The position numbers and the translations under genes are program-made. From contig CAKKNE010000002.1 of the NCBI GenBank assembly GCA_918797485.1, positions 2,790,001-2,854,000 on the forward strand: 64,000 nucleotides of DNA, read 5' to 3'. The DNA is from Pelagomonas calceolata (Eukaryota). The notes beneath the pieces are model-generated. The model was not told where the DNA came from. It did not search any database and worked only from the letters and a program-made list of their open reading frames with translations. Shown piece by piece: positions 2,049-43,428 of the stretch; within the stretch, counting starts at the first letter, position 1, and each line of letters opens with the position of its first letter.

Positions 2049-3261
2049 ATGCCCCGCAGCGGCGAGCTCGAGGCCGGGAGCAAGGACGAGCTCGAGACCG
2101 TGGCGCTCGTCGACGACGCCGACGCGGTGCGGCAGCGGCACGGCGCGCCGCGGTCGCCGACGGCCGCGCGCAAGACGACGACGAGCGCGCCGTCGTCGTC
2201 CGCGGCCGAGGTCACGCGCAAGGCGCTCTTCGTGGGCCTGGCGGCGCTGCTCATCTGCTCGTCGGGCTTGTGCATCCGCGAGGCGGAAGATGACGAGGGT
2301 AATATAACCTACGCCGCGACGTCCGTCACCTTATTCAGCGAGATGCTCAAGCTGAGCCTCGCGCTCGTCATCACGCTGACGTCGGACGCGCCGCGGCAGA
2401 AAATCGACGCCCGGACGGCGGCCTACTTCCTGCCCGGCGCCGTCGGGTATCTGGCCGTGAACAACGTGCGCTACTTCATGCTCGAGCAGGTGAACCCGGG
2501 CCTCATGGCCATCGTCTGGAACCTGAAGATCTGCGTCATCGGGTTGCTCTACGCGCTGCCGCCGTTCCGGCGGGCCTTCACGCGGTTCCAGTGGGCGGGC
2601 GCGGGCCTGCTCGTCGTCGGCTCGACGCTCGCCGAGGTCTCCCAGTGGGGCGCGACCGACGAGTTCGGCCAGAGCAACACGGGCGGGACCCTCGGTTTGG
2701 AGGTCGTCGCCGGCGCGCTCGTCCTCACGTCGGCGTCGGCCGTCGCGACGGAGTACGCCTACAAGGTGACGGACCTGCCGCTGTCGCGGCAGAACGTCAT
2801 CCTCTACACCTACGGCTGTTTGTTAAATCTGCTGACGGCCCTCGTCTGGCGGTCCCTCGAGGGCCAGTCCTCGGTCCCGTTCACGCGCGGCTTCACGGCC
2901 TGGACGTGGGCCGTCGTCGCCGCGCAGGCGGCCTCGGGCTACGCCATCGGCGCGCTGCTGAAGTACGTCGACGCCATCGGCCAGGTCTTCGCCGACGTCA
3001 TCGCGATGCTCATCACGGTTGTTTTCAGAGTCGTAGCTTTTGGTATATATATCTTACGTGTTAATGACGCAGGTGACGGTGTCGACGCTGCTCTTCGACC
3101 TCGACATGAACTTCCTGTACGCGGTCGCGCTGCTGCTCTCCGCCGCGTCGCTCGGGGTCTACTACTCGGACCTGATCACGACGGCCCTCGAGGCGCGGCG
3201 TGCGGCGCGTGCGCGGCAGATCGAACTCGTGCCGCCGAAGGCCGACGCGTGCTGAGGCTAG
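2049..3261 (+). CDS. Nucleotide-sugar transporter (SLC35A-like), 2 exons (2049-3017, 3073-3261); candidate C-terminal selenoprotein ending ...DAC-U-G
   Basis: Multi-TM protein with family motifs (SEMLKL, YLAVNNVRY, WNLKI, QWAGAGLLVVG, LKYVDAI). A phase-0 GT..AG intron at 3018-3072 restores AMLIT|VTVSTLLF. Ends TGC TGA GGC TAG; 3255 is the end if TGA is a stop. Confidence 0.85.
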
Positions 3262-3289
3262 GGGCGCTCTGTGGCGTCGTCGTCGTGGC

Positions 3290-3342
3290 CGGTCCCCGTG
3301 ACGGCGCGGATCCCTCTACAGGGGGCCCGCGCCCGACGACCG
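3290..3342 (+). promoter_or_regulatory. Candidate SECIS element of the transporter mRNA
   Basis: Lower helix CGGTC/GACCG, core GTGAC(3298-3302)/CGAC(3334-3337), upper helix GGCGCGG/CCGCGCC and apical stem CCCTC/GGGGG. Confidence 0.7.
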
Positions 3343-3399
3343 TTCGCGTGGCGGCGACGATTGTGTGTTAATGAAATTCGCAGATAAGGACTCTCGCAT

Positions 3400-4190
3400 T
3401 TGTGCTAGTGTATCGACTACAACTCCTTATGAGCTGAGGGGAGAGAGAGGAAACGACACGCGGGGTAAGAGGACGATGTGGGGGTAAACAGTGCAGGAGG
3501 AACATGACGGCCCTGAAGAAGACCGTTCGGACCCGGAGGGGCGTGGAGCCCGTCCACCCGGAAGGTGCAGCCGGTCCAGTCGTCGCGCGCCTCGTTCTTG
3601 TGGTTGTTCTCGTCCGTCGCCATGCCTGCGGAGGGCCTCGCGGTGCTCGGCGAACGCGTGATGGGCGCGCGGGGGCGCGGCGGTGTGTTTGAGCCGCCGC
3701 CCGCGCGGTCGACTCGGTCGTCGGCGCCGACCTTCGCGCGACGCGCGGCGGCGCCTCGGGGCCGGCGCGCGCGTCACGAGGCGCTCTCGCGCGGCGGAGC
3801 GTGGAGGAGGCGGCGGGCGCGGCTCAGGGACGCGGGAAGCGCGGTACCTTCGAACGTCGATGTTGTGAATCAAACTGCCTGTTGAAGGACCTCCGTGCGG
3901 CGCTGCAGCGCGTCCGCGCAGGTCGCCGAGGCTCGTCGTCGAGCGCCTGGGTCCGTTCCGTCGCCGCGCTGTGGCCCTGGTCCACCGCGCCGCGCTTTTG
4001 CGGCGTCGACGGCCGCCGCCCCCAGATCGTTCTGCGCTCTGCGATTTTTTTGATTCGCAAAGGGGCCTTGCGCCCCCCGGCCGGGTCCGCGGCCCCCGCG
4101 CGGCGCGGGAGGGCTCGGGGGCCTTGGGGGGACGGGTACTAGCTCGGTAAAGCGCGGTCAAGCGGCTAGCCGTCGCCGCGCCATTGCCTG
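3400..4190. repeat. Dispersed ~0.8 kb repeat, copy 1 (putative non-autonomous mobile element)
   Basis: Near-identical by eye to 35090-35985 and 59858-60612; starts TATCGACTACAACTCCTTATGAGCTG. Confidence 0.9.
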
Positions 4191-4242
4191 GAACTGAGGC
4201 CGACGCCGCCGACGGAAGAAACACACAAAAAGACTTACCGAG

Positions 4243-5478
4243 TCACCGAGTCGACTGCGGCGGCGAGTAGTCGTCGCCCCACGTGAGGAACCTCGAGTCC
4301 GCCCCGGGGTCGAGCCGGCCCCGCCGCCGCGCGGGCAGTTCCGGCGCGGACCGCGGGCCCGCGTCGGGCGACCGCTGGCTCGGCGGCGGCGTCGCCGGCG
4401 GCGCGACGCCCAGCACGGCCGCCTGGGCCCGCCCGAGGTCCAGCGCGTTCGGCTGCGCCGCGCGCACGGGCGGCGGCGGAAAGCGGCTCGCGCTCGCAGC
4501 GGGCGGCGGGACCAGCGTCGCCCGGCGCAGCGCCACGAACCGCCTGAAGAACGACGCGGCCGTGCAGCGGCCCTTCGACGCCATCCTGACCGCCTCCCGG
4601 GCCCGCCGGCGCTGCCGCCGGTGGCGCCGCGCCGCGGCCACCGTCACGAGCGCGTCGATGCGCGTGTCGCCGCTGCTCACCATCGCGGACAGCGCCGCGT
4701 GCGTCAGGAGCGTCGCGAAGGCGCGGGCGCGCGCGAGCTTCCGCAGGTAGACGTGCGGGGAGACGGACCGGCGCACGACGTCGCCGTCGACGTGCGACGC
4801 TTCGACGGGCCGCGCCGCGTAGGCGAAGCCGTAGAGGTCCGCGAGGGTCTGGCGCGCGGGCGGCGCGATGCCGATCTCGACGGGCGGCGGCGGCCGCGGC
4901 GGCGACAGCGCCGCGACGTCGACGCAGTGCGCCCCCGCGAGCGGCCCGTGGTGGGCCTTGGCGATTGCCGCGTCGCGCAGCAGCGCGTCGAGCGGCACGG
5001 CGCCCTGGCCCACGACGCACGTGAAGGCCGCGTCGCGCGGGTCCAGAAAGGCGACGGCCGTCACGGCCAGCCCCGCCGCCTCGAGGCGCGCCAGGCCCAC
5101 GGCGCGGGCGCCCGCGCGGCGTGGCGCGGCCCAGTCGCCCTCGACGACGCGGACGCCGTGCTCGAGGAACTCGTCCTCGAGCGTCGTCGGATTTTGGGGA
5201 GTGGGGCCGGGCGCGGGCCGCCGCTCGCGGCCGTGGTGCGTCGTGTCCATGCCGCTGCCGAGGCCGCTGCCCAGGCCGGACGTGGCGAGCGACGCCGCGA
5301 CGGCGTCGACCGAGCTGCTCAGCGACGCCGCCACGGCCTCGAGGTCCTCGTCGTCGCTCGCCGCCTCGTGGAGGCCCAGGGCCTCGATGCCCACGACGAG
5401 GCCCTCCGGGGATCTCGCGTGCTTGAGCGTGTGCTTGACCGCGGCTTTCGAGGTCTTGGTGCGGGCGGCGCGGCCCAT
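4243..5478 (-). CDS. Hypothetical protein
   Basis: ORF with GC3-biased codons, MGRAARTKTSKAAVKHTLKH...; no family recognised. Confidence 0.6.
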   Translation of the reverse strand: MGRAARTKTSKAAVKHTLKHARSPEGLVVGIEALGLHEAASDDEDLEAVAASLSSSVDAVAASLATSGLGSGLGSGMDTTHHGRERRPAPGPTPQNPTTLEDEFLEHGVRVVEGDWAAPRRAGARAVGLARLEAAGLAVTAVAFLDPRDAAFTCVVGQGAVPLDALLRDAAIAKAHHGPLAGAHCVDVAALSPPRPPPPVEIGIAPPARQTLADLYGFAYAARPVEASHVDGDVVRRSVSPHVYLRKLARARAFATLLTHAALSAMVSSGDTRIDALVTVAAARRHRRQRRRAREAVRMASKGRCTAASFFRRFVALRRATLVPPPAASASRFPPPPVRAAQPNALDLGRAQAAVLGVAPPATPPPSQRSPDAGPRSAPELPARRRGRLDPGADSRFLTWGDDYSPPQSTR

Positions 5479-10534: not shown

Positions 10535-11007
10535 GGCTCGGGGTCGTTCGCCGCGAGAAAAGGACGTGTTTAATAATACTTACGAAGTAGTCGCGTCGGC
10601 ACACGCGCGTTCGGTCGTTTCGCCGCGACCGCGCCGGGATCGTACAGACTGGGTAGCCTTCCCGGGCTTGGCGCGTGGACGCGGGCGTACGGCGGGGCCA
10701 AAACACGGGAGGCAGACCGCCCGCGGTACTGGGGTATGACTTGAGGCTTACAACTCCTCGCCGGGGGCGCCCCTAGCCCTGCAAAAAATCGCACAGAACC
10801 CGTACTAGTAGCGCAAGTACTTGAGTACTCGGGAGCAGAGCTGTGAAATGACTCCCTAGCGCGCACATTTATTCACAAGAATTGCTGCGTAACTAATAAA
10901 ACGGAACCAGGCCGGCGGCGGCGGCGAACGAACAAAAAAACGCCGCGGCGCCCGCCAGTCACAGCCTACAAACAAAGTCAAGAGAACAAATTCGGTCGGC
11001 TGCCGCC

Positions 11008-14000
11008 ATGGCCGCAGACGAACAATTAAGAAAACTCCTCGCCGCCCATGCCCCCAAAAGGACAACCACCGCCGCGCCTCCACAGCCCATCGACGACGAG
11101 GGCGCGGCCGCCGCGGCGCGCGCGGAGCTGCGGCGCCAGCGGCCGGCGTCGCGGAGCGACGCGCCGGCGGAGACGCTCGAGAGCGCGCTGAGCCAGGGCT
11201 CGGCGCGCGCCTTGGCCGCCGCGCTGGCGCGCATGCCCGCGAGCGGCGCGGCGACCGAGGCGCAGCGCGCCGACTGTAGAAAATTATTAGCCTTGCGGCC
11301 GCTGCCCTTGGATCGGTACGCGGCGGCATTGGCGGCGGCGGCCGAGCGCGAACGCGACGCCGCCTATAGAAGGGCGCGCGCCCGATTGCGCTTCGTCGAC
11401 GGCGGCGAGGCGACCGGCCCGGACGAGTTCGACGCGACGCGCATCGGCGCGCTGGCGGCCTGCTCCCAGCTCCGGGCGCCGCGCAAGCGCGACGTGGCCG
11501 CGGGCCGCGCGCGCTACTACTTCGAGGCGTCGCTCCGGTCGGCGGGCGCCGCGGGTACCTTAGGATGGGGCCGCCACGAGGCCGACGGGTCCACCACGAT
11601 CGTCGCCGCCATCACCTTTCGGGGCGGTATTAGGGAAGCGAGCTGGTCCTCGGTCGAAGACGATTACGGCGAGGACGTCGCTCTACTCAATGAAGAAGAC
11701 GAGCCGCCGGCGCCGCCGGCGCGGCGGCCGCGGCGCACGCCGGGCCAGCACCCTAATTCGGTCCAGGCGCCGCCGCAGCGCGTCGCCGGCTGTCTCTATG
11801 ATGCGCACTCGAACAGCGTGGCCTTTGCGCTCGACGGAGTCTGCGTGCGCGTGTGCCGCGTGCCGGGCGACGGCGGCCTCTTCCCGATCTGTCGGGCAGA
11901 CCCGAGCGCCGCGCCGTTAGATGATGATGATGAAGACGAGGAGCGCAAGGAGGCCGAGACGCGCGGCGTGCGGCTGAACGCGGGCGCGCAGTCTTTTAGT
12001 CGAGACCCCGAGGGGCTCGCGGCGTCGCTGCAAAAGGCCCTGCAACTCAAGGGCGAGCCGCGGCTGCGGTGTCGAGCCGCGCGGTCCGCGACGCGGGCGA
12101 CGTTTCTCAGAGGGGCCGTCAAAGCGCAAGCGACGGACGTGGCGACGCTCGAGGTCGTGTGCCGCTTCGATGAAAAGCCACCAGCACGCGTCTGCGTCGC
12201 GCGCGCGCCGGCCATGAGTTTGTGGGTGGAATTTGACGAAGACCGAGAACGGTGCGTCTGCGCGTTTTCCGGGTCAAGTGTCGCGTCGCCCTGGGTCCAG
12301 GCGCGCTTGGAGCGCTGGCGCCATCTCGCCGTGAGCATCGGCGACGACGGCCCGCCCTCGATGTACGGCGACGGCGCGCTGCTCGACGCGGCGCCGTGCG
12401 AGTTTGAACAAAATGATAGTGACGACGTCGCCTTCGGCCTGCCCTGCGACGACACGGCAGACCAATTCTGCGGCACTATTTCAGAGTGCCGCGCGTGGTC
12501 TTCATCTAGAACGCCGCGCGCCGTCTCGGCGCGGTGCGGCCGCGGCGCGTGCGCCGGCGACGAGCCGGACCTCATAGGCTTGTGGCCCCTCGACGAGGGC
12601 GTGGGTGGCGAAGCGCGGAACTGCGCCGTCCGGGCGCCGTCACCACTCAAGGAGGCGTGCGCCGTGTCTTCCGATGCATGGGTGCATGATGGTGATAACG
12701 ACGACGACGTCGAGACCGTCAGTCTACCGCAAGGCGACCCCGACGTGCTGGATCGGGAGGCCTTCCGGGACCCGGGCGACGACGACCCTGCGGAGCTGAC
12801 GGACGCGCTGATGGCTTGCGTGACAAGGGCTCGGGACGAAGAAGAGGCGTCGCTCCAAGTATTATCAATAGCGGCCCACGCGCGCACCTTCCAGCTGGCC
12901 TCTGTTGCATTGTGGGCCCAGCGCAGCGACGAGGACCAGGCTCGACGGTTGCGGGCGGACGCCGACGACGCGACGCGCTTGGTCGCGGGCCGGCCCCAGC
13001 TGCCGGCGGCGCTGCCGGCCTGCGCTTCTATGTTAACGCGGAGCCTCGCTTCCGTAAATGAGGTCTCGGCCGCCGCGGCGCTGTGCGCGGCGCGCTGGGC
13101 GCGCGCCGCCGCGGGGTGGCTACGAAGGTCGCGCGCATCGACGCGCGAGGCGGCGTTACCTAAAGCCGTGCGCGAGGAGCTGGTAAGGGCGGCCGTGCGC
13201 GTCGCCGAGGGGGCCCTCGGCACTGATGATGATATAGTGAGAAGGCACGCGCGCGTCGAGTGCGCGCGCCTCGTCGCCGACCACGCCGATCTGTTGTTTG
13301 ACGCCGTCGATGCAAGAAGGTCCTGCTTCGTGCGGTCGTTGGAGGACCACCCGGGCCTCCTGGCCGAGTTTCTTGGGAGGAGGTACGCGGCGAGCCCGCA
13401 ATTGTTGTCCGAGCTCGTGCCGCCGTCACTCCGGCCCGTGCGCTTGGGTAAGGCCCGGCGCCTCTGCACGAAGGCGGCGCAGGATGCCATTGATGACGCC
13501 AAAGCATTGACCGGGAATGGCGTCGAGTACACGGACAGGGCGCCGTGCCGGCGAGGCGACGTTTGCATTCTCACGACGCGGTCGCCGCGCGAGGCGCGGA
13601 CGGTGGGCATCGTGACGGACGTGGACGGCAACAATATAAAAGTAGAGTGGCGCGAGGGGCCCCGGAAGCGGCGGGCCGACCCGGTGCAAAAGTATCCCAA
13701 TGGAGACGTGTTGTTACGAAGGTGCTCGGCGCGGCGGGTCCTGGGGCCCGCGCTCGTGGGCGACGACGACGCGCCGCGGTGCCCGTCGGCCCTCAAGAAG
13801 CGGGTCTTAGTGGATGGCCTACGGCTCGTGGCGACGCGGAGCTGGCTCGCGCGGCGGCGCTTGTTGCTCGAGCCGCCCGACGCGCTGCCCGACGAGGCCA
13901 GCGGCGAGCCGCCGCCGGACCCGCGCGGCGACGTGGCGCGTTCGCGGACCTGCGACGACCTAAGAGCGCTCTACGAGGACGCGTGCGGCGAGTTCGGCTA

Positions 14001-17000
14001 TTGGCCGGCGACGCTCGACGACGCGACGGCGAACCAAGGCGAGGCCGAGGCGCGGTGCCTGACGTTGTTCGGGCGACTCATAGAGCTGCTCGACGGCCAC
14101 GCCTGGGCGCGGGACTTGTTTGACGCCATGCTCGCCGAGGCCGGCGCCGACGACGAAGAAATTGATAGTGAGCGCTTCTGCGGCGCGCCGCGGGTGCTGA
14201 GCCGAGTGGCGCGCGACCTCATGACTATTCCAAATCAAAAAGAGCGCGCCCTGTCCGCATTAGCCGCGCTGGCGCGCTTCGACGCCGTGGACGGCGCCGC
14301 GGCCAAAGAGCTGCTCGCCGCGCTCAAGAACAAAGCGGACGGGCCCGCGGCGGTCGTGGCGCGCGTCGCCGGGCTGGCCCTCGCGGCGCTGGCGCGGCCG
14401 CCGCCCCTGGCCTTGCAGGGCGTCGAGCCCTGCGCCTTTGACGAAGGCACGGGCGAGGCGGCCGTTCCCGCGTTCGCCTCCGTCAAAGACAACTGCACGT
14501 CCGTCGCCGCGCCTCTCCTAAATCTGGGCGGTGCCGTCCTCGAGCCGGCCGTCGAGGCACTCTGGCGCGCGAGCGTGATGCTCGGAGGCGACCCGGCGGA
14601 CGCGTTCGCGACGGCCGCGCCGGGCGTTCGCATCTGGGCCAAGGGCCGCGCCGCGGAGCACGTCCTCGAGGCGAGCGCGGCCCACGTCGTCGCGGCGAGC
14701 GCCGCCCTGGCCACGCTCGCGGCACAAGCGGCGCCGGCCGTCGCGCTCCGCGAGGCGACGCGCGACGACGCCGCGGAGCGCTGCCTGGCCTTCCGCCGGC
14801 GCGCGGCGCGGCGCGCTTCTGCTGCATCCAATCGCCGCTGGGCCCTGCGCGCGGCCCTCGAGCTCTACGAGGCGCTGCCGCCCGCGGCGCGCGGCCCGCT
14901 CGCGCGCGAGATCGCCCGCGCGCTCTGGCCGGGCTGCAACGCGGTGACGCCCCCGGACCGGGACGCCCTGGCCTACGCGCAGCGCGCGGTCGCCGCGGAC
15001 GGGTCCTTCGCGGCGCTCTACGGCGCGCTGGGCGAGGACGCGCTCCGGGCCGCGCGCGCGGGCGACGACGTCGCGCCGCTCCTGTCCTGCTTCTCCGACG
15101 ACACGCTGCCGCCAGAAACGGTGGAGACGCTCGTGAGCGTCGAGCGGGCGCTGCGGGACCGCGGGCGGCACGACGACGCGCGCGCGGCGCTCGAGACGCT
15201 CTTCAAGGTCCGGGCGCCGGCCGCGGCCCTCCTCGCCGCGGCGACGGCGCACGCGGCCAAGCTCCCCGAGTCGCACGCGGACCGCGCCTGCGCCGCGGTC
15301 TGCTTCGCCGTCGCGGACGCCGAGGGCGCCGCCTGGGCGCCGTTCTGCGCCGAGGTCGTCGCGCGGGCGCCGCCGCACGGCGACGCGCGCGCCGCCGGCT
15401 GGCGCCTCGCGGAGACGCTGCTGAAGCGGCCGGAGGCCGCGGGCGATGCTATTTGCGCCCTCGCGGCGCGCGCGCTCGAGGGCTGCCCGCGGCCGGGGCC
15501 CGCGCGCGCGGCGCGCGCGGCGCTCTGCCTCCCGGCGTCGGGCGCGGCGCCCCTCGCCGTCGCGACGCTGGCCGAGGGCGGCGCCAAGGCCACGGCCCTC
15601 CTCGAGGCGATCGGTCTGACGACCTTTCTGGGCGTCGACGGCCACGCGGAGAACCTCGACGGCGTCGCGGACGACGTCGCGGCGGCGGTCTTCGAGCTCT
15701 TCGCGACGCGCTGCCTCGACAACTCCGACTCCGAAAGCGACGAGCGCGGCCGCGCCGCCGCCGCGGCCGCGGCCGTGGCGCTGGCCGTCGCGGGCGTCGC
15801 GTCGGACGCGGGCCGCGCGCGGCGCGCGCGGCTGCGCGAGACGCTCGCGCGCGAGGGCCGCGGCGCGGCGCTGCTGCGCCTGGCGGCCGCGCCGCTCGCG
15901 GGCGTGCCCGGCCTCGGGGCCCTCGCGCGCCTGAAGGACGCCGCGACCGACGCGCGGCCCGCGGAGACCGCCGACGCGGCGGCCGTCGAGCGCCTCGCGG
16001 AGATGGGCTTCGACCGGGGCTGGTGCGAGACCGCCCTGCTCGACGCGCGCGGCGACGTCGACGCGGCTTTGGCGACGCTGCTTGGCCGCGCCGCGGACGC
16101 CGAGGCCGCGGCGGAGGCGCCCCCGGCGACCGACGACCCGTTCCCGCGCCACTACGCCTGCGAGCGCGCGGCGGTCGTCGTGCGGTCCGCGCCGCGGCGG
16201 ACGGCCCCGGCCGTCGCGCGCCTCGTCGACCACGACGTCGTCGCCGTCGAGCAGCGCGGCGCGTGGCTGCGCGTGCGCGCGGCGCGGCGCGGCGGCGGCG
16301 CGGCGCCACCGCGCGACGCCCTCTACGCGGCGTTCCAGGGCGGCCGCGTGGCGCTGAGCACGGGGTCCGTCGCGTCGACGGACGACGACGCGCCCGCGGC
16401 GCCGGCGCTGCATTTATTGAGGCGGGGCCTCGACACACCGGCGACGCCCGCCGCGCTGAGCGCCGAGAACTTGAGAAGGCGCCTGCGCAGCGACGGCGTC
16501 GTCCTGGGCAGCGGCTTCACGCCGCCGGAGCAGCAGCGCGCGCCCTCGGAGGTGAGCGCCGCGCCGTCGGAGATGACGGCGAACGTGAGCGACGTCGGCG
16601 AGCTGCTGCGCGGGTCGCGCCGCCAGGTCCGCGAGGTCACGGTCCAGGAGGAGCTCGACGACGACGACGACGACGGGGGCGACGACCAGGGGTCGCTCGT
16701 CGAGCCGGCCGGGTCTTTGATCGAGGACGCGTCCGCGGCGCCGAGCGTCTCGGCCACGGAGACGGAGGACGCGACGCGGACGACGGCGATCGACGCGTCC
16801 GTGGCGTCCTTCGAGCCGCCGGCGCGGCGCGCCGCGTCCATCGCGTCGAGCTGGACGAACGCGCGCGCGTCGCTCGCGGGCGACGACGGCGTGTCGGACC
16901 GCATCTCGGAGCAGCCCGATCAGGAGGAGTCCGACGACGCGTCGCTCGACGACGAGGACGCGTCGCTGGTCGAACCGGCGCGCGCGCCGCGGCCGCCCGC

Positions 17001-20000
17001 CCAGGCCTCCGGCTGGGTCCTCGCGGCGGACCTCGCGCCCTTTTGCGTGCGGCCCCGCCGGGCGCGCCCGGCCCGGGGTCCCGCGCCCTACCCGGGCCTC
17101 GAGCGCGACGTCGGCGACGAGGCCTACCGCCGCGACGACCGCTTCTTCGGCGCGCGGCACGGCAGCTCGCCGCCAGACGCCGACGCCTGCGCGGACGGCG
17201 CTCGAAGTGGATCAAGTCCGCTGGGCCGGACGCGGCGCGCGGCGCGCGCGGCGCCGGACGCGTGCTGGGCCGCGCTCTGGCGGCTGCGCGCGCGCGAGCT
17301 GCTCGTGGCTTTAGTGTCCGCGTGGGCGGCCGGCGACGAGGGCGTCGTCGAGGACGCGCGGCCGCTCGTCGCCTTATTGAGCGATGAGGAGGGCGTGCCG
17401 CGCGAGTTCGCGTCGTTTTTGGCGCTGGTCCTCTTCCGCGACTGGCGGCCGGCGTGGTGGCCGCGCGACGCGACGGCCAAGGCCTTGACGGGCCGGCCCG
17501 CGGCCGCGCCGCTGTCCTTTGAGCTGCGGGGCGCGCTGCTGCCGGCGCTGCTGCAGCGGCCGACGCGGCTGCTGCTGCGCCACGCGACGTTCGGGCCGCC
17601 GCTCGCCGCGGCGCTCGCGGACGTCTGTAGGCGGCACGTCGCGACGGACGCGGGCCCGAAGGCCGACGCGGACGCCTGCGCGGTGCTGTTTGGGGAGGAA
17701 GACGACCCGCTCGTCGTGAACGACGACGACGCCGTGAAGGGCGGCCGCCTCGCACTCGCGCAGTGGTGCTGCCGGACGCTCACGGAGGAGCCCACGGCGG
17801 CCCTCGACGGCGCCTTCGACGCCTTTTCGTCGCTCCTCGCGAGCGACGACCTGCGGCGCAAGCAGCACGCCTGCGCCGAGCTCGCGCGCGTGCTCGCGGC
17901 GCTGCAAGACCGCGGCGACGACGACAAAGCCTCAGAGCTCGCGCGGCGGCTGCCGCGGCGGCGCCTCGAGAATTTAGCAAGGCGGCGGTGCCTGCGCGAG
18001 GCCGAGGACGCGCCGGTCCACTCGCGCGTCTGCCAGGCCTTCGTGGACCTCGCGGCGCGCGTGAGGGCGCTCTGCCCGGCCGACGGCGAACATGACCGGG
18101 CGCGCTTCGCGCTCGAGCTGACGGGCGGCGAGGCGCGCGTCGAGGTGAACGCCGGCGACGTGCCGCCGCCCTGGACCGCGGAGTTCGTCTTGCGCCGCGA
18201 CCGGCTCGACGACGCGGCCGAGCCGCCGAACGACGACTCCGACGAGGACGACGACGACGCCACGGACGGCGGCGCGACGTGGCTCGCGCCCGTCGTCCTC
18301 GCGGGGTCGCGCGCGGGCGCGGAGCTGCGCCTCCAGCACGGCGGCGCGGCCTTTGGCGACGGCGGGCCGGACGCGCCGGACGAGGCCGCGTGCGTCTCCG
18401 TCGACGGCCAGACCTTTGAATATAAAGTGCCCACGGAGAAGTGGGTTCACCTCGCCTTCGTCTGCCGCGAGCGGCGCGCGACGTCGACGGCGGCGCTCTG
18501 CCCGCGCGCGTTCGACTCTTACGAAGCGGCGCCGAAGCACGTCGTCGAGCTCTTCGCGGACGGCCGCCTCGTGGGCTGCGTCGCGAGCGCGGCGGCCCTG
18601 CCGCTGGGCGCGGTGGGGCTGGTCGAGGGCGCGGCGCCGTCCACAGAAAAGCGGCCGCGCGCGCCGCCCGCGCGGTCGCCGCGCGCGCGCGTCGCGCTCG
18701 CGCGCTACTGGTGCGTCGCGCGCACGGCGGCGGACGTGCGGCGGTCCTGCGAGCGCCAGGCGCCCCTGGGCGCCGCCCGCGGGTTGTTGGCGGCCTTTCG
18801 GTTGGCCTTTGACGACGCCGAGGACGCGGGCTGGCCCGCGACGCGCGCGCCGTCCGTCGTGGAGGACGCCACGGGGAATCATCGAAGCGTGAACCTCGCG
18901 GGGGGCGCGGTCTGGATCAAGGCGCCGCGCGCGCCGCTCGAGCCCATCTGCAAAGAAAGAGAGCCCTTTGACTTTTTGGAGGCGCGCGGCACGACGACGC
19001 GACGGGCCGTGACCGGCGTGCAGGCCGGCGTGCTAGCCCGGGACAAGAACGAGGCCTTTGTGTTGCGACTAAGACGCAAGGGCGCGCAGCATTTGGAAGG
19101 GGAGGCCGAGTGGACGGAGCGCGGGCTCGTCTGCGCGGTCAAGGGCTCCGTGAAGGAGGACAAGTTCCGCGTGGTCGTCGGCGACGTGCTGCACGGCTCG
19201 TGCGGCGACGACTCCGACGACGACCCCGGGAGAGCCGACGACGAGCGCGCCTGCGACGGCTGCTGCGCGGTGTCGCCGCGCGACGCCGTTATTTCCGGAG
19301 AGCGGACGGCGTTCGGCGAGTGGTCCGGTAGTGTGGAGTTCGAGGTCGACGCGGTGCAGAAGCACTATGTGGACCAGGGTTTGTTGGACGAGGCGGCGCT
19401 GCCGAAGGGACTAGACGTGAGAGAAGTGGGCGGTGCGTTCGCGGACGCGAACGACGCACTCAGGACGCCGCGGCGCGCCCTGGTCGTGGCGGCCGCGAGC
19501 GGCGGGCGGTTCTGCGGCGTGGCGTCGGCGCCCGTCGCTTTTGATGGAGAGAGCGACGAGGACGACGCGCCGGCGTGCGACGCGTCGCGGCTCAAGGACG
19601 ACGACGCCGGCGTCAAGGCCGGCGACGCGTCGCTCGCCGCCGACGTCGCGGCCCGGGCCTGCGCGCGGAAGCTGTCGTCGTTAGATCTGGACAAGCCCCA
19701 GGCGCCCATCAAGGCCCAGGTCGACGCGGCGCTGGAGTTGGCAGACGCGGCGCGCGTCGCGCGCGCGAAAGCGCGGCGCCTGAATAAGCCCGTGGCCGAC
19801 GCGGCGACCTGCGCCGAGCGCGCGCGGCGGCGCGACGCGGGCCCGCCGCCGCGCGAGGTCTCGGCCAAGAAGCCGCCTCCCCAAAAGCCGCAAGACCCCG
19901 TGCCGCGCGGGTCGAGCGGCGGCCGCACGTCCACGAAGATCGTGGAGAAGGCGCCCAACCTCGGCTCGGCCAAGCAGAACACGCGGATTGTGGGCGAGCC

Positions 20001-23000
20001 GCCCGCGGGCACGCTGCACGTGCGGATCCGCGACAACGTCGCCGCGCTCGGCGAGGAGACCTACTTTAAGGTGAAGTGGTCGACGCGCATGGAGCGCGTC
20101 TTCCAGGCCTACGCCGTGCGCAAGCGCAGTTCGCTCGACACGCTGCGCTTCCGGCTCCCGGGCGCGGACCGCGACATCGGCATGGACGAGACGTCCACCA
20201 GTCTCGGTCTGGAGGATTTGGCCTTAATAGACTGCTTCGCCAAGGAGCCTGAGGAGCTCATGAAGGAGGAGGAGCTCGCGCCCGCGCGCGCCGTCGAGGC
20301 CGCCGTCGACGCGGCGCTCGACGCGGCGCGCGCCGCGGCCGAGGCCGAGGCGCCGCCCTCACCACCGCGGCCGGGCCGGCCGCGGCCGCCCTCGTCCCCC
20401 AAGCAGGAGGCCGACGCGAAGGAGGCCCGGGACCTCGACCCGCCCTCGTCGTCGAAGAACGAGGTCGGGTCCTTCGGCGCGACGAGCGGCGTCTGGTGCT
20501 GGGAGTGGGAGGCGCGGCGCGTCGCTTCCGGTGACGTCGGCGTTGGTCTAGTGGCGGCGGGCCACGACGCGACCACGGCATTGGGCGGATCGAAGACGTC
20601 GCCGTGGTGCTACCGGTCGTGCGGCGCTCTGGCGGGCCGAGGCGAGGTGCGAAGCGCGCCGGCCTTCGGGGCGGGCGACGTGATCGGCGTCGAGCTGCGG
20701 ATCGAGGGCGGCAGGGGCTCCGTGCGCTTCTACAAGAACGACGTCGAGGCCACGGCGCAGCAGGCCACGGAAGCGTCGCTGGCGACGCTGAAGATCGCCG
20801 AGATCCCGGAGGGGGGCCTGCGGCCGGCGTGTCATGTGGGAGGCGCCGGCGACGCGCTCATCTGGCGGGGCTGCAAGCGCGGGCGGTCCGCTCGGTCGTA
20901 CGCGCCCGAGGGCTGCGAGGACTGCGACGGCGCGCGGTCCTACGAAGGTTCATACGACGCGCGGACGGGCGCGCGCCACGGGCCTAGTGGTGTGGTCCGC
21001 TACCGGCGCTGCGCGGGCCGCTGGGTCGGCCCGTGGCGGCGCGACCGCATGCACGGCGTGCAGCTCTGGGTCGAGCCGGCGCCGGCATCCCAGGAGGCGT
21101 CGGCGTTTTGCGACGGCGACGAGATCGTGGCGCCGGTCTTATTCCTGGACGGGCGGCGCATCCGCGCGTTGGACGACGAGGACGGCGCCGAGGCGATGCG
21201 CTCCTACTTCGCGTCCAAGGCCCAGGCGCCGGAGGAGGCGGCCGCGGAGGAGCAACCGGCGCTGTCCGAGGAGGAAGACGACGAGGACTGCGGCGAGGAC
21301 CAGCCGCCCTGGACCTTGCGTGTCGTTTACCGAGAAGGAGCCACCGCCAGGCGAGGCGTAGAAATCGACGCGAGCGATGTGGTCGGGCGCGTCGGCGCGG
21401 GCGAGGAGGTCGTGGCCCATAAGCGCGCGGTGACGCAGGACGGCGTGCCGCGCTACCTGGTCAAGCTGCCCCGGTCGGGCGACGAGGAGGACAAGTCGGG
21501 CTGGATCTCGGAACGATTAAGAGGCGGCGCGCGCGACGCGGTCTGTGTGGTCCTAAGACACGTCGTGCGGGGCCGGCCGCTGCGCTATCGGGTCGTGCGG
21601 CCGGGCGGCGCCATGGTGCGCGCGACGCCTTCCTTAGATGGCGCGGAGGTCGGTCTCGCTCCGGCCTGGACGGCGCTGAACGTGGCCGAGCGCGTCAGAT
21701 TGCCGGGCGGCACGACGCGGTTGCGGGTCGTGGCGCCGTCGCGCTGGGCGGGCTGGGCGTCCGAGAAGGATCATATTGTCCGGCGCGAGCCGTCGCGCGC
21801 GGAGGTGGCGCGGGCCGCCCGCGCGCGCGAGGCGCGGCGGAGGCGGCGCGTGCGTAAAGCGCGGGAGGACGCCGACAAGGCACGCGTGACGCGGCTCGAA
21901 AGGAAGCGTAGGGCCAAGCGGCCGGCCGTCGAGTTGCCTCCCGTGAGGGCGACGTGGGCCTGCCGCGCGGAGACGCGCCACTTGCTGGATCGAAGGGAGT
22001 GCGGCGCGGGCCTGAAGGTAAGCGAGGACCTGCTGACGGCGACGTGCACGGCGCCGCGGCGAGGCCGCGGCCTCGCGCTGGCGTCGACGCGCATGCGGAC
22101 GGGGCGGCATTACTGGGAGGTCGCCGTCGAGCGCGCGACGTGGGGCTCCGTGTTTGTGGGCGTGGCGGCCGTCGGCGCGGGCCGCGGCCCGGCGGCGCCG
22201 CTCAAGGCGCCCGGCGCGGCCGCCGGCTGGGCGGGCGTGGGGTTCGTGAACTACCGGGCGACGCAGGCCTTCGGCGCCGAAGCTTTGTATGGCTCGTACT
22301 ACGGCCCCGGCGACGTCGTCGGCGTTTTATTAGATTGCGATCGAGGCACTTTGTCTTTCGTGAAGGATGGAGACGATTTCAACGCGGGCCGGGCCGTCGT
22401 GGCCCATTTAGGCACGGCCTACAGCGATGTGTGGCGGCGGTTCGGGCGAAGTTGCCCTGGCGCTCGGGCCGGGCTCTACGCCTGTTTGGGCTTGAAGGGC
22501 GACGGCGACCGGCTGAGCCTGCGCGGCTCCAAGGCCTGGACCGACGGCATGGACGTGCCGCCGCGATTGGACGCGTTCCAACGGGCGGCGGGCGGCATCG
22601 AAGCGCTACGCGCGTTCGCCGAAGCGCGGCGGTTTTCGACAGCGCTCCCGGACGCGTTCCGCGCGGCGGCCGCGGCCGCGACGGCGAAGTGGCGCGAGAC
22701 CTTTGATGGGGTGCAAGGGAAGCGGGTCCTCGCGCGGTCGCGCGCGCGCGTCGACGTCGCGCTCGACGCGTCGGAGGAGGCATTCGCGAAAGCATTGGAC
22801 CGCGCGGGCCGGCCCGAAGCCCAGCTCAAGGCCGGGGACACGGTCGACGCGCCGCACGGCAACGGCGTCGTGCTCGGCTGCGACGCGCACCATCGCGTCT
22901 GGGCGGCGGTGCCGGGCGTCGACGACGACAGGGCCTGGTACTGGACGCCCGAGGAGCTCGCGCGGCGACTCGACGACGGGTTGGTGGCGCCGGCCTCGGA

Positions 23001-29520: not shown

Positions 29521-31090
29521 CTAGTACTCCTCGCCGAAGTCCTCCTCCTCGCCCTCGCCCTCGGCGGTCTCGGCGCCGACCTCCTCGAAGTCCTTCTCGA
29601 GGGCCGCGAGGTCCTCGCGGGCCTCGGAGAACTCGCCCTCCTCCATGCCCTCGCCGACGTACCAGTGGACGAAGGCGCGCTTGGCGTACATGAGGTCGAA
29701 CTTGTGGTCGATGCGCGAGAGCGCCTCGCCGACGGCCGTCGTGTTGGCGACCATGCAGACCGCGCGCATGACGCGGGCCAAGTCGCCGCCGGGGACCTGC
29801 GGCGCCGGTCGGGGGTCGACGCGCGTCGTGTTGGGTTGGAGGAGCAGGGGTTTGAACCCTGGACTTTCCGCATGCAAAGCGGACGCTCTGCCACTGAGCT
29901 ACACCCCCGCGCAATTCCGACGGGACTCGAACCCGCAACCCCCAGATTCGAAGTCTGATACGCTATCCATTGCGCCACGGAATTTTCGGACGCGGGCCAC
30001 CGACGACCGTGGGCGGCTGGTAGTTGATGCCGCACTTGAAGCCCGTCGGGCACCAGTCGACGAACTGGATCGTGCGCTTGGTCTTGATCGTGGCGACCGA
30101 GGCGTTGACGTCCTTGGGGACGACGTCGCCGCGGTACATGAGGCAGCAGGCCATGTACTTGCCGTGGCGCGGGTCGCACTTGGTCATCATGCCGGCCGGC
30201 TCGAAGACCGAGTTCGTGATCTCGGCGACGGAGAGCTGCTCGTGGTACGCCTTCTCGGCCGAGATGACCGGCGCGTACGACGTGAGCATGAAGTGGATGC
30301 GCGGGTACGGCACGAGGTTCGTCTGGAACTCCGTGATGTCCACGTTGAGCGCGCCGTCGAAGCGGAGCGACGCCGTGAGCGACGAGGCCACCTGGGCGAA
30401 GAGGCGGTTGAGGTTCGTGTACGTCGGGCGCTCGATGTCGAGGTTGCGGCGGCAGACGTCGTAGAGGGCCTCGTTGTCGAGGGCGAACGTCACGTCCGTG
30501 TGCTCGAGGAGCGCGTGCGTCGAGAGCACCGAGTTGTAGGGCTCGACGACGGCGTTGGAGATCTGCGGCGCCGGCGAGATGCAGAACGAGAGCTTGGACT
30601 TGCGGCCGTAGTCGACCGAGAGGCGCTCGAGGAGGAGCGAGCCGAGGCCCGAGCCCGTGCCGCCGCCCGTGGCGTGGAAGGCGAGGAAGCCCTGGAGGCC
30701 CGTGCAGTTGTCCGCGAGCTTGCGGATGCGGTCGAGCACGAGGTCCACGATCTCCTTGCCGATCGTGTAGTGGCCGCGCGCGTAGTTGTTGGCCGCGTCC
30801 TCCTTGCCCGAGATGATCTGCTCGGGGTGGAAGAGCTGGCGGTACGTGCCCGTGCGGATCTCGTCGCAGACCGTCGGCTCGAGGTCGACGTAGACCGCGC
30901 GCGGGACGTGCTTGCCGGCGCCCGTCTCCGAGAAGAACGTGTTGAAGGCGTCGTCGCCGCCGCCGATGGTCTTGTCCGAGGGCATCTGGCCGTCGGGCTG
31001 GATGCCGTGCTCGAGGCAGAAGAGCTCCCAGCAGGCGTTACCGCCCTGGAGACCGGCCTGGCCGATGTGGATGCAGACGCACTCACGCAT
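29521..31090 (-). CDS. TUBA: Alpha-tubulin, 2 exons (31090-30005, 29796-29521), 453 aa
   Basis: [13 protein letters not shown]...GGGTGSG...QPPTV|VPGGDLA...EEY; phase-0 intron 30004-29797 (GTCGGT...CCGCAG). Confidence 0.98.
29837..29908 (-). tRNA. tRNA-Ala(UGC), inside the tubulin intron
   Basis: GGGGGTGTAGCTCAGTGGCAGAGC...TCCGC-TTTGCAT-GCGGA...GGTTCAAACCC; G3:U70 Ala identity pair; one U6.U67 mismatch. Confidence 0.93.
29912..29984 (-). tRNA. tRNA-Arg(UCG), inside the tubulin intron
   Basis: Cloverleaf: acceptor AATTCCG/CGGAATT, D arm GCGC-AATGGATA-GCGT, anticodon loop CTTCGAA, T loop TTCGAGT, discriminator G. Confidence 0.93.
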
Positions 31091-42519: not shown

Positions 42520-42596
42520 GCGACGCGTCTTGTCTCGGGCCGCGCCCGATCCCAGAAGGGATCGGGCGCGCGCCGTCATGTGCGCGCGCACGCGAT
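42520..42596 (-). promoter_or_regulatory. Candidate SECIS element of the DsbA/FrnE mRNA
   Basis: Core ATGAC(42579-42575)/CGAG(42537-42534) closing a 16-bp stem GGC-CGCGCCCGATCCC/GGGATCGGGCGCG-GCC with a UUCU loop. Confidence 0.75.
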
Positions 42597-42603
42597 GCGG
42601 GGC

Positions 42604-43428
42604 TCAGAGCCGTATCGTCTCGGCCATGACCTCGTCGGGGATGCTCAGCGCGGCGGCGAAGGCCGAGCCCGTCGCGCCGCCCTCGGCCTCGACCTGCCGG
42701 AAGGCTCGGATCAGGGACTCGGCGTGGTGCGCGCCCGAGGGCAGCTGGTACTTGCCCCCCAAGATGAGCGTGGGGATGCCCGAGACGCCCAGATCCCTTA
42801 ATTGCCTTTGCGCCGCCTCGATCTCCGGCCGGCCCTCGTTTTCATCCTCGAGAAACGCCGCCGCCGCGTCTCGGTCGGCGCCCACGGCCACGGCCGCCTC
42901 CAGGAGCATCTCCCGATCATTGAGTTTGACGCCCCCCTCGAAATGCTTTTGATTCAGGTCGTTGTACATGTTTTCCGCGGCGTTCACTCCCAGAGTCTTC
43001 GTCACCCACTGCACGAGCCGGTGGCTCGCCATCGTGTTCGACGCGACGCGGTCCAGGTTAAAGTGCTCGATGCCGACCTCGCGGCCCCGGCCCTTCAGGT
43101 TATGCCTCTCTTTCTGCGCCTCCCAGCCGGCCTTGCCGCCCCACTTCCTCAGCAAACGTACCCTATTGGTTTCCTCGAACTCGGCGCCCTCGGGGTAGTC
43201 CGGCTCGAGGAAGAACGGCACGCGCAGCACCGTGAAGCCCATCGGCGTGTCTCCGCTCGGCGCTTCCTGCACCGCCCGCATCGCGTGCTGGAGGTGCCGC
43301 TTGCCGATGTAGCCGTTGGGTCACATGGTGTCCGAGATGAGCTCGACGACGCAGCGCGGCGCGGCCGCCGCCGCCGTCGAGGCGCGACGCACGCGTGCCA
43401 TGCTGCGGAGAGAGGTGCGCAGCAGCAT
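42604..43428 (-). CDS. DsbA/FrnE-like thioredoxin-fold selenoprotein (Sec = TGA 43323-43321), probable mitochondrial presequence
   Basis: ORFs 43321-43548 and 42604-43281 are one frame: VELISDTM-TGA-PNGYIGKRHL...PFFLEP...GVSGIP. TGA sits at the first Cys of the FrnE D-x-x-C-P-x-C-Y-I-G motif. Confidence 0.88.

What the first reader, a model, noticed from the sequence alone, without database searches (positions are those of the whole stretch)
2049..3342. Candidate new selenoprotein: nucleotide-sugar transporter ending Cys-Sec-Gly with its own SECIS
Seen: after splicing intron 3018-3072 the SLC35A-like ORF ends ...CCG AAG GCC GAC GCG TGC TGA GGC TAG. A hairpin 42 nt downstream has a SECIS core (GUGAC/CGAC), lower helix CGGUC/GACCG and upper helix GGCGCGG/CCGCGCC, and closely resembles the hairpin behind the DsbA selenoprotein in this window. 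Known: C-terminal Cys-Sec-Gly is the redox tail of animal thioredoxin reductases, and near-terminal Sec occurs in SelS/SelK. Inference: Sec384 sits on a tail after the last TM helix, suggesting a redox-switchable secretory-pathway transporter. I know of no Sec-containing SLC35 protein, but could not search. Caveat: the UGA-SECIS spacing is shorter than the roughly 50+ nt usually cited for mammals.
Basis: partly seen in the sequence, partly recalled or inferred. Interest (0 to 1): 0.9.

Follow-up and report, generated by a model that had tools for sequence, protein, structure and literature searches.

The report
Young selenocysteine tail on sugar transporter
A nucleotide-sugar transporter gene of a marine microbial eukaryote ends Cys-UGA-Gly-stop and has a selenocysteine-signal-like hairpin in its mRNA, while the nearest related species lacks the Cys, the second stop and the hairpin, so this is likely a recently born selenoprotein, although selenium insertion is untested.

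Summary
RNA reads confirm the intron (3018-3072), so the spliced frame ends Cys383-UGA-Gly-UAG. The protein is an SLC35A-like transporter. The hairpin (3290-3342) lies in the transcribed 3' UTR. Such a hairpin is rare by chance (about 8e-4 per 100 nt; scan tuned post hoc) and resembles the hairpin behind the window's DsbA-like UGA gene more than 99.8% of random hairpins do. Across 54 environmental variants its core shows no visible change while loops and flanks vary.

The syntenic ortholog of a sister species (85% identical) ends Ser-UGA and lacks the whole 97-nt piece carrying UAG and hairpin. Farther orthologs have unrelated tails with no Cys. So this is not a conserved selenoprotein family, and transport does not need Sec. 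It is at most a young C-terminal extension. Against Sec insertion: UGA-to-core spacing is 42 nt (51-111 nt minimum in mammalian cells), there is no apical AA, and there is no covariation. Best reading (0.6): partial Sec insertion giving a Cys-Sec-Gly tail on one lineage's transporter. A redox-switch role is speculation.

The parts
2049..3017 (+). Exon 1 of an SLC35A-like nucleotide-sugar transporter (residues 1-323)
   Evidence: PF04142 62.1 bits vs cut-off 27; CMP-sialic acid transporter 6i1r E 7.6e-24 for the spliced natural variant P0266
3018..3072 (+). 55-nt AT-rich intron; absent from the sister and farther orthologs, polymorphic within the species, partly retained
   Evidence: junction reads; no intron in L001 or L005; 51-nt alleles in L002 and L003, about 37-39% retention by a rough depth estimate
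3073..3252 (+). Exon 2 coding part: last membrane helices, a further helix, short coil ending in Cys383
   Evidence: 41 of 43 in-frame database fragments of this species end in Cys
3253..3255 (+). TGA, codon 384: candidate Sec codon; the only in-frame UGA downstream of the start codon; at the same position as the sister's UGA stop
3256..3261 (+). GGC TAG (Gly385, stop)
   Evidence: identical in L002-L004; 0 visible changes in 54 variants, P about 0.08
3259..3355 (+). 97-nt segment (UAG, spacer, hairpin) absent from the sister species; ends ambiguous by a 3-nt GGC repeat (3256-3352 fits equally)
   Evidence: alignment with L001
3290..3342 (+). SECIS-like hairpin: helix I, GUGAC/CGAC core, helix II, apical loop without AA
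3343..3391 (+). Rest of the transcribed 3' UTR; 3353-3384 is homologous to the sister's 3' UTR
   Evidence: contigs of X10 and X15 end at 3391
42604..43401 (-). Control gene: DsbA/FrnE-like ORF with in-frame TGA (43323-43321) at the catalytic Cys position, motif U-P-N-G
   Evidence: PF01323 57 bits; aligns to FrnE CPWC; 15 of 15 listed cluster members (255 in the cluster) start downstream of the TGA
42525..42592 (-). Control hairpin behind the DsbA-like gene: AUGAC/CGAG core at 42579, long stem, loop without AA
   Evidence: z -2.8

Best explanation
The spliced mRNA encodes an SLC35A-like nucleotide-sugar transporter ending Cys383-UGA-Gly-UAG and carries a SECIS-like hairpin 42 nt behind the UGA, which likely recruits the selenocysteine machinery so that a fraction of ribosomes would insert Sec and stop two codons later, giving a Cys-Sec-Gly tail on a predicted cytosolic, flexible C-terminus. 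Shown: splicing, codons, hairpin in the transcript, family, absence of the tail in relatives. Inferred: Sec insertion, with the 383-residue Cys-ended form as the other product. Inferred history: a C-terminal extension confined to this lineage, more probably (about 60:40) made after the split from the sister by insertion of a 97-nt stop-plus-SECIS piece behind an ancestral UGA stop together with Ser-to-Cys, than lost in the sister. Inferred function (weak, about 0.25): a vicinal Cys-Sec pair acting as a selenium- and redox-dependent tag on localisation or turnover, not on transport, since the sister's transporter lacks it.
For: Hairpin inside the + strand transcript. My geometry scan gives 3 hits in the window, two of them directly behind the two genes with an in-frame TGA; shuffles give 0.9-1.1 per 128 kb, i.e. 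7-9e-4 per 100 nt. 0 of 184 prokaryotic/viral chance matches to the 5' motif complete the geometry. Likeness to the DsbA hairpin: 9 of 3,974 null hairpins as alike. In 54 off-frame database proteins (25 distinct tails) all carry the segment; 24 distinct visible substitutions fall in unpaired UTR parts, 0 in the core (3.5 expected, P 0.024), 0 in GGC-TAG (P 0.08), both together P 0.003. Cys kept in 41 of 43 in-frame fragments although neighbouring residues vary. No AUG-started upstream frame offers another UGA. G before the quartet is usual in Ostreococcus SECIS (PMC2375036). New Sec by C-terminal extension has precedent (PMC2397514; SelI, PMC3316567). For gain in this lineage: it also gained the intron, an 8-nt tandem duplication near 4237-4252 and apparently 830 nt more.
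Against: Spacing of 42 nt is below the 51-111 nt minimum measured for Dio1 in human cells and the 207-5207 nt seen in mammals; I found no paper showing a shorter working distance. No apical AA, and the 3' core is CGAC, not KGAW; the control hairpin shares both deviations but is a single, untested control. No Rfam SECIS match (nor for the control). Helices are not depleted of changes: 8 seen, 9.2 expected; 4 keep a wobble pair, 1 is compensated in one haplotype but not in another, 3 break a pair. Folding z only -1.3. Sister lacks everything; no Cys homolog of the Sec position exists. Seven molecules in X21 end at 3262, before the hairpin. The scan was tuned after seeing both hairpins, so its P values are optimistic; the variant data are nucleotide changes inferred from peptides of metagenome assemblies.
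Confidence: 0.6

Rival explanations
1. The hairpin is a real SECIS by descent, captured from another selenoprotein's 3' end, but it sits too close to act. UGA is the ordinary stop, as in the sister, and the protein ends at Cys383; the element is a passenger or only affects mRNA stability.
For: 42-nt spacing. Stop-to-core distance (36 nt from UAG) is like that of an ordinary selenoprotein 3' UTR (24 nt in the control). The sister uses this UGA without any hairpin. The region has taken up other extra pieces. Helices are not depleted of substitutions.
Against: It leaves the Ser/Cys difference directly before the UGA and the invariant core and GGC-TAG to chance. No second, near-identical expressed copy is seen: only one contig of X10 covers the hairpin.
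Confidence: 0.25
2. Same mechanism as the best reading, different history (not exclusive of it): the Cys-Sec-Gly tail arose before the two species split, and the sister lost it by a deletion between GGC repeats and Cys-to-Ser.
For: The sister keeps TGA-GGC at the same place. Its junction is followed by about 10 nt that fold back on the stop region, which could be a repair scar. Recent loss of a C-terminal Sec in one species is known for Drosophila SelK (PMC2500217).
Against: The other length differences at this locus are gains in the window's lineage. Outgroups with complete tails have no Cys there. The nearest outgroup fragment, P0034, ends in a probable intron and is uninformative.
Confidence: 0.25
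3. The hairpin is a chance GC-rich structure, and Cys-UGA-Gly-UAG a chance context.
For: Folding z -1.3; about one geometry hit per window by chance, and one of the three real hits (61008, minus strand) lies in coding sequence; no Rfam match.
Against: Position, likeness to the control hairpin and core invariance are each unlikely.
Confidence: 0.08
4. The long stem behind the UGA drives readthrough by another amino acid, not Sec.
For: An extended stem can start about 20 nt after the UGA; non-Sec UGA readthrough by stem-loops is proposed for insect SPS1 (PMC4561486).
Against: The spacer that forms the extended stem varies freely while the SECIS-type core does not.
Confidence: 0.05

Closest known systems
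SELENOI (SelI/EPT1)
   Same: Multi-pass membrane protein whose homologs lack Sec; Sec lies in a C-terminal extension of unknown function with no Cys forms (PMC3316567, passage of section 12).
   Different: SelI is fixed across vertebrates; here the host is an SLC35 transporter, the extension is two residues and is missing in an 85%-identical ortholog.
Sec gain by carboxy-terminal extension (Xenopus SelP; proposed for thioredoxin reductases)
   Same: A former stop position becomes Sec and the next stop ends the protein (PMC2397514).
   Different: In SelP a SECIS already existed and UAA/UAG changed to UGA. Here the UGA appears shared with the sister, and the SECIS-like element plus the new stop are the added (or, in the sister, deleted) piece.
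Thioredoxin-reductase C-terminal Gly-Cys-Sec-Gly motif (motif recalled)
   Same: Cys-Sec-Gly-stop at a flexible C-terminus.
   Different: Ala, not Gly, precedes Cys; no flavin domain and no newly gained partner cysteine.
CMP-sialic acid transporter / SLC35A (PF04142)
   Same: Sequence (6i1r, E 7.6e-24) and fold (TM-score 0.80 on the target, 27% identity); ten membrane-length helices.
   Different: Substrate unknown; no Sec-bearing member found in my searches.
Eukaryotic SECIS element
   Same: Two helices around an R-UGA/GA quartet in the 3' UTR; the start of helix II matches the SECISearch3 model consensus (AUGAcGg).
   Different: No apical AA, 3' core CGAC, 42-nt spacing, no Rfam hit. It works like a SECIS by inference; canonical membership is not met.

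Membership tests
Eukaryotic SECIS | Tandem GA/GA pairs in an R-UGA...GA quartet | tested here: met
   3298-3302 and 3334-3337
Eukaryotic SECIS | Core consensus UGAN/KGAW (PMC3753652) | tested here: not met
   3' side is CGAC; the DsbA control has CGAG
Eukaryotic SECIS | Helix I and a helix II of about 11-13 pairs | tested here: met
   5 bp; 7 bp + mismatch + 5-6 bp in the window, L002 and L003
Eukaryotic SECIS | Unpaired AA (or CC) 10-13 nt after the quartet | tested here: not met
   No AA; a CC lies at that distance but is paired in the predicted fold. The control has none either.
Eukaryotic SECIS | Lies in the 3' UTR of the mature mRNA | tested here: met
   low raw-read depth, true 3' end not mapped
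Eukaryotic SECIS | At least 51-111 nt from the UGA (mammalian assay) | tested here: not met
   42 nt to the core, 34 nt to helix I
Eukaryotic SECIS | Match to Rfam SECIS models | tested here: inconclusive
   no match up to E 10, and none for the control
Eukaryotic SECIS | Conservation or covariation across species | tested here: not met
   absent in L001 and L005; only within-species constraint on the core
Eukaryotic SECIS | Binds SBP2 and directs Sec insertion | not testable with these tools
   needs experiment
Selenoprotein (usual in-silico criteria) | Homologs with Cys or Sec at the UGA position | tested here: not met
   none among the hits outside the species (tails); stop codons of P0014, P0019 and P0202 not seen
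Selenoprotein (usual in-silico criteria) | Organism has Sec machinery (tRNA-Sec, SBP2, eEFSec) | not testable with these tools
   no genome held; indirect support from the DsbA-like UGA gene
SLC35A-like nucleotide-sugar transporter (PF04142) | Pfam match above cut-off and ten-helix CST fold | tested here: met
SLC35A-like nucleotide-sugar transporter (PF04142) | Nucleotide-sugar antiport in Golgi/ER | not testable with these tools
   inferred from family knowledge
Thioredoxin-reductase redox tail | Gly-Cys-Sec-Gly on a flavoprotein with an N-terminal dithiol | tested here: not met
   Ala-Cys-(Sec)-Gly on a transporter

The most novel reading that the evidence does not exclude
A selenoprotein caught at birth: a 97-nt piece carrying a stop codon and a SECIS landed three bases behind an ancestral UGA stop, turned that stop into Sec, and with Ser-to-Cys gave an SLC35 transporter a Cys-Sec-Gly tail, decoded by an AA-less SECIS only 42 nt from the UGA.
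Probability: 0.35. Interest if true: 0.85.

Novelty: new variant of a known kind. Interest (0 to 1): 0.62.

Why it matters
Birth of selenoproteins by C-terminal extension has been proposed from old cases. Here the with and without states sit in two syntenic species at 85% protein identity, so the proposal becomes testable at one locus. If Sec is inserted, the element also breaks two rules taken from mammals (minimum UGA-SECIS spacing, apical AA), which would mean that standard searches miss selenoproteins in this lineage. It would be the first Sec-bearing nucleotide-sugar transporter that I could find. If not, it is a clean natural case of a SECIS that sits too close to work.

Tried and rejected
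No whole genome is held, so I could not look for Sec machinery, other SECIS elements or a donor of the 97-nt piece. Rfam gave only two tRNAs at gathering score and no SECIS at E up to 10 for either hairpin. Plain local alignment of the DsbA hairpin did not single out the SLC35 hairpin. My first strict scan missed the DsbA hairpin; the scan was loosened to accept both. Orthologs: none in viral or prokaryotic contigs; DsbA relatives: none in viral contigs; the contigs behind L001-L005 are not held for search. Motif scans of prokaryotic and viral collections gave chance matches, used only as a null. A search with the off-frame peptide of the hairpin region found 3 short proteins, all fragments of this locus or chimeras, and no donor locus; this is an insensitive test. 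An upstream in-frame TGA (1983-1985) as the true target was rejected: no AUG precedes it in frame. Read-level population variation in environmental runs was not obtained, so variation rests on L002-L004 and database peptides. Earlier scan notes had nothing on this genome or sequence; the word search returned unrelated prokaryotic and viral cases. Dropped rows: P0265 (ends before the UTR) and P0232 (lacks the anchor) from the 54; P0124 (unrelated motif match) from the 43. Cross-species pair counting was not done, because only same-species copies of the hairpin exist.

Full report
1. Observation. The spliced frame 2049-3017 + 3073-3261 reads 383 residues, TGA (3253-3255), Gly, TAG. The 55-nt intron is real: 28 and 22 junction reads in X21 and X23, which are one sample, and one contig in X10 from another study (4 of the 24 listed runs were laid). 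Reads are + strand and show no variant at these codons. Contigs of X10 and X15 both reach 3391, beyond the hairpin, but contigs cannot fix an RNA end, and raw depth falls from 12.7/10.1 to 4.8/2.1 over the hairpin. The hairpin has the parts described; its core begins 42 nt and helix I 34 nt after the UGA. The DNA occurs in marine metagenomes; that it is a pelagophyte alga is my recalled guess and comes from no call.

2. The protein. Exon 1 matches PF04142 at 62.1 bits (cut-off 27). The spliced natural record P0266 matches CMP-sialic acid transporters by sequence (E 7.6e-24) and fold (6i1r, TM-score 0.80 on the target). The model (mean pLDDT 87) has ten membrane-length helices, a further helix at 354-373 and a coil to the end. 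That this end faces the cytosol is recalled from SLC35A topology.

3. Is the hairpin more than chance? Its folding energy is not (z -1.3), and Rfam has no match. The control is the DsbA/FrnE-like gene at 43401-42604, whose in-frame TGA aligns with the catalytic Cys; 15 of 15 listed cluster members are cut at that TGA. Its hairpin is also missed by Rfam and also lacks apical AA. A geometry scan loosened to accept both finds 3 sites in the window: these two and one in coding sequence. Shuffles give 0.9-1.1 per 128 kb, about 8e-4 per 100 nt, and 0 of 184 chance matches to the 5' motif in prokaryotic and viral DNA complete the geometry. Between the cores, only 9 of 3,974 null hairpins resemble the control as much. 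These tests are post hoc, but chance is unlikely.

4. Within the species. L002-L004 keep TGC-TGA-GGC-TAG and all stems, differing in the C run and apical loop. 41 of 43 in-frame database fragments end in Cys; the two others are a chimera and a frameshift. Gene callers often read through the intron into the UTR, which gives 54 peptides (25 distinct tails) that report UTR variation. All carry the segment. Unpaired parts show 24 distinct visible substitutions and many indels; the core shows 0 (3.5 expected, P 0.024) and GGC-TAG 0 (P 0.08); jointly P 0.003. Helices show 8 against 9.2 expected: four wobble-preserving, one compensated in P0243 but not in P0009, three breaking. That frame cannot see every change (for example TGA to TAA), indel placement is ambiguous, and assemblies may be chimeric. 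This is moderate evidence of constraint on the core only.

5. Across species. One metagenome scan gave 5 loci from 122 candidate stretches. L001 is a syntenic sister (77-82% nucleotide identity over the flanking genes; 85.4% protein identity; 36% of fourfold sites differ). It ends Ser-TGA-GGC and then joins sequence homologous to window 3353-3384: the 97 nt with TAG and hairpin are absent, and no scan hit exists in L001 or L005. 13 of 13 sister proteins end in Ser. Farther orthologs (P0013/L005, P0014, P0202, P0019; 52-58% where full length) have unrelated tails without Cys; L005 ends at TAG, the others' stop codons are unseen. The tree places the window and sister together (97/96) with P0034 next, whose tail is hidden by a probable intron. 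Among the best 150 of 1,025 representative hits, none outside the species has a Cys-Cys-Gly end. So the tail is young, and transport does not need it.

6. Gain or loss. The window's lineage gained the intron (absent in L001, L005 and the unspliced full-length P0014), carries an 8-nt tandem duplication at the neighbour's stop, and has 830 nt more in the interval (988 nt against 66 between the stops). That favours gain. The sister's TGA-GGC and a short fold-back over its junction fit loss. The 3-nt repeat at the ends fits either. I put it at 60:40 for gain. No near-identical expressed donor showed in X10, where a single contig covers the hairpin.

7. Mechanism. By established eukaryotic recoding (recalled), SBP2 binds the SECIS core and brings eEFSec with Sec-tRNA to the UGA. 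The only in-frame UGA after an AUG is codon 384. I infer partial insertion, giving a mix of 383-residue Cys-ended and 385-residue Cys-Sec-Gly-ended proteins that depends on selenium. Cys383 is the only cysteine gained relative to the sister, so a vicinal Cys-Sec pair is the only evident redox unit. A tag for localisation or turnover is my guess (about 0.25). The main objection is spacing: 51-111 nt minimum in human cells, 207-5207 nt in mammalian genes (PMC3753652 passages; PMC3316567 section 14). I found no paper with a shorter working distance (PMC5397149 passages had none). Seven molecules ending at 3262 in X21 only are unexplained and could mark a SECIS-less form.

8. What is known. C-terminal extension is a published route to new Sec (PMC2397514 passages; the thioredoxin-reductase paper seen only as its reference). 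SelI is the closest analogue (PMC3316567 passages). Lineage-specific SECIS features are known (PMC2375036 passages). Loss of a terminal Sec in one species: PMC2500217 passages. Non-Sec readthrough: PMC4561486 passages. A search for 'nucleotide sugar transporter' + 'selenocysteine' + 'SECIS' found 0 papers. The survey of 42 algal families has 0 occurrences of 'transporter' or 'SLC35' in its main text (PMC7539508: abstract, sections 5 and 10, passages), but its supplement was unreadable. In the Seblastian supplement, file 2 has 4 occurrences of 'transporter', of which I saw 2, both ABC-type; file 1 was not searched. The Aureococcus selenoproteome paper and three others were not held. 'Not described' is therefore limited to these searches.

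9. Verdict. A real, transcribed, lineage-restricted Cys-UGA-Gly-stop with a non-canonical SECIS-like element. I do not file the hairpin as a canonical SECIS, since apical AA, core consensus and spacing fail. Probability of Sec insertion about 0.6; of the full birth-by-insertion reading about 0.35. New variant of a known kind; interest 0.62.

Noticed in passing
window 3018-3072; L002, L003: The intron looks young and is variable: 55 nt here, 51 nt (in frame) in L002 and L003, many alleles in database peptides; roughly 37-39% of transcripts seem to retain it (rough depth estimate). Public records hold the unspliced 440-aa reading (P0003), which runs through the hairpin and is probably a mis-annotation.
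   Followed up: partly
window 43401-42604 (-): DsbA/FrnE-like probable selenoprotein with U-P-N-G, i.e. no resolving Cys; its hairpin is a long stem with a UUCU loop and no AA, and is missed by Rfam. Suggests an AA-less SECIS type in this lineage.
   Followed up: partly
window 3385-4214: 830 nt absent from the sister. A spliced minus-strand contig joins 3851 onward to 3627-3553, over a small ORF (about 3622-3417), and reads from another locus overlay 3553-3624.
   Followed up: partly
window 3262: 7 molecules in X21 end one base after the UAG (depth beside 24); not seen in X23; no poly(A) tail among the loose ends shown.
   Followed up: no
L001 about 4142-4165: The sister's stop codon lies in the 5' arm of a 10-bp fold-back with two G-U pairs; chance, a repair scar or a selected structure.
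   Followed up: partly
window 4237-4252: 8-nt tandem duplication at the stop of the convergent gene, which changes its stop from TAA (sister) to TGA.
   Followed up: no
window 29837-29984 (-): Two tRNA genes 3 nt apart (anticodons read as Ala and Arg from the alignments), directly beside an alpha-tubulin-like C-terminal fragment (name recalled) at 29524-29898.
   Followed up: no
window 10900-24768 (+): A single open frame of 4,623 codons; its C-terminus looks HECT-like (recalled, not tested).
   Followed up: no
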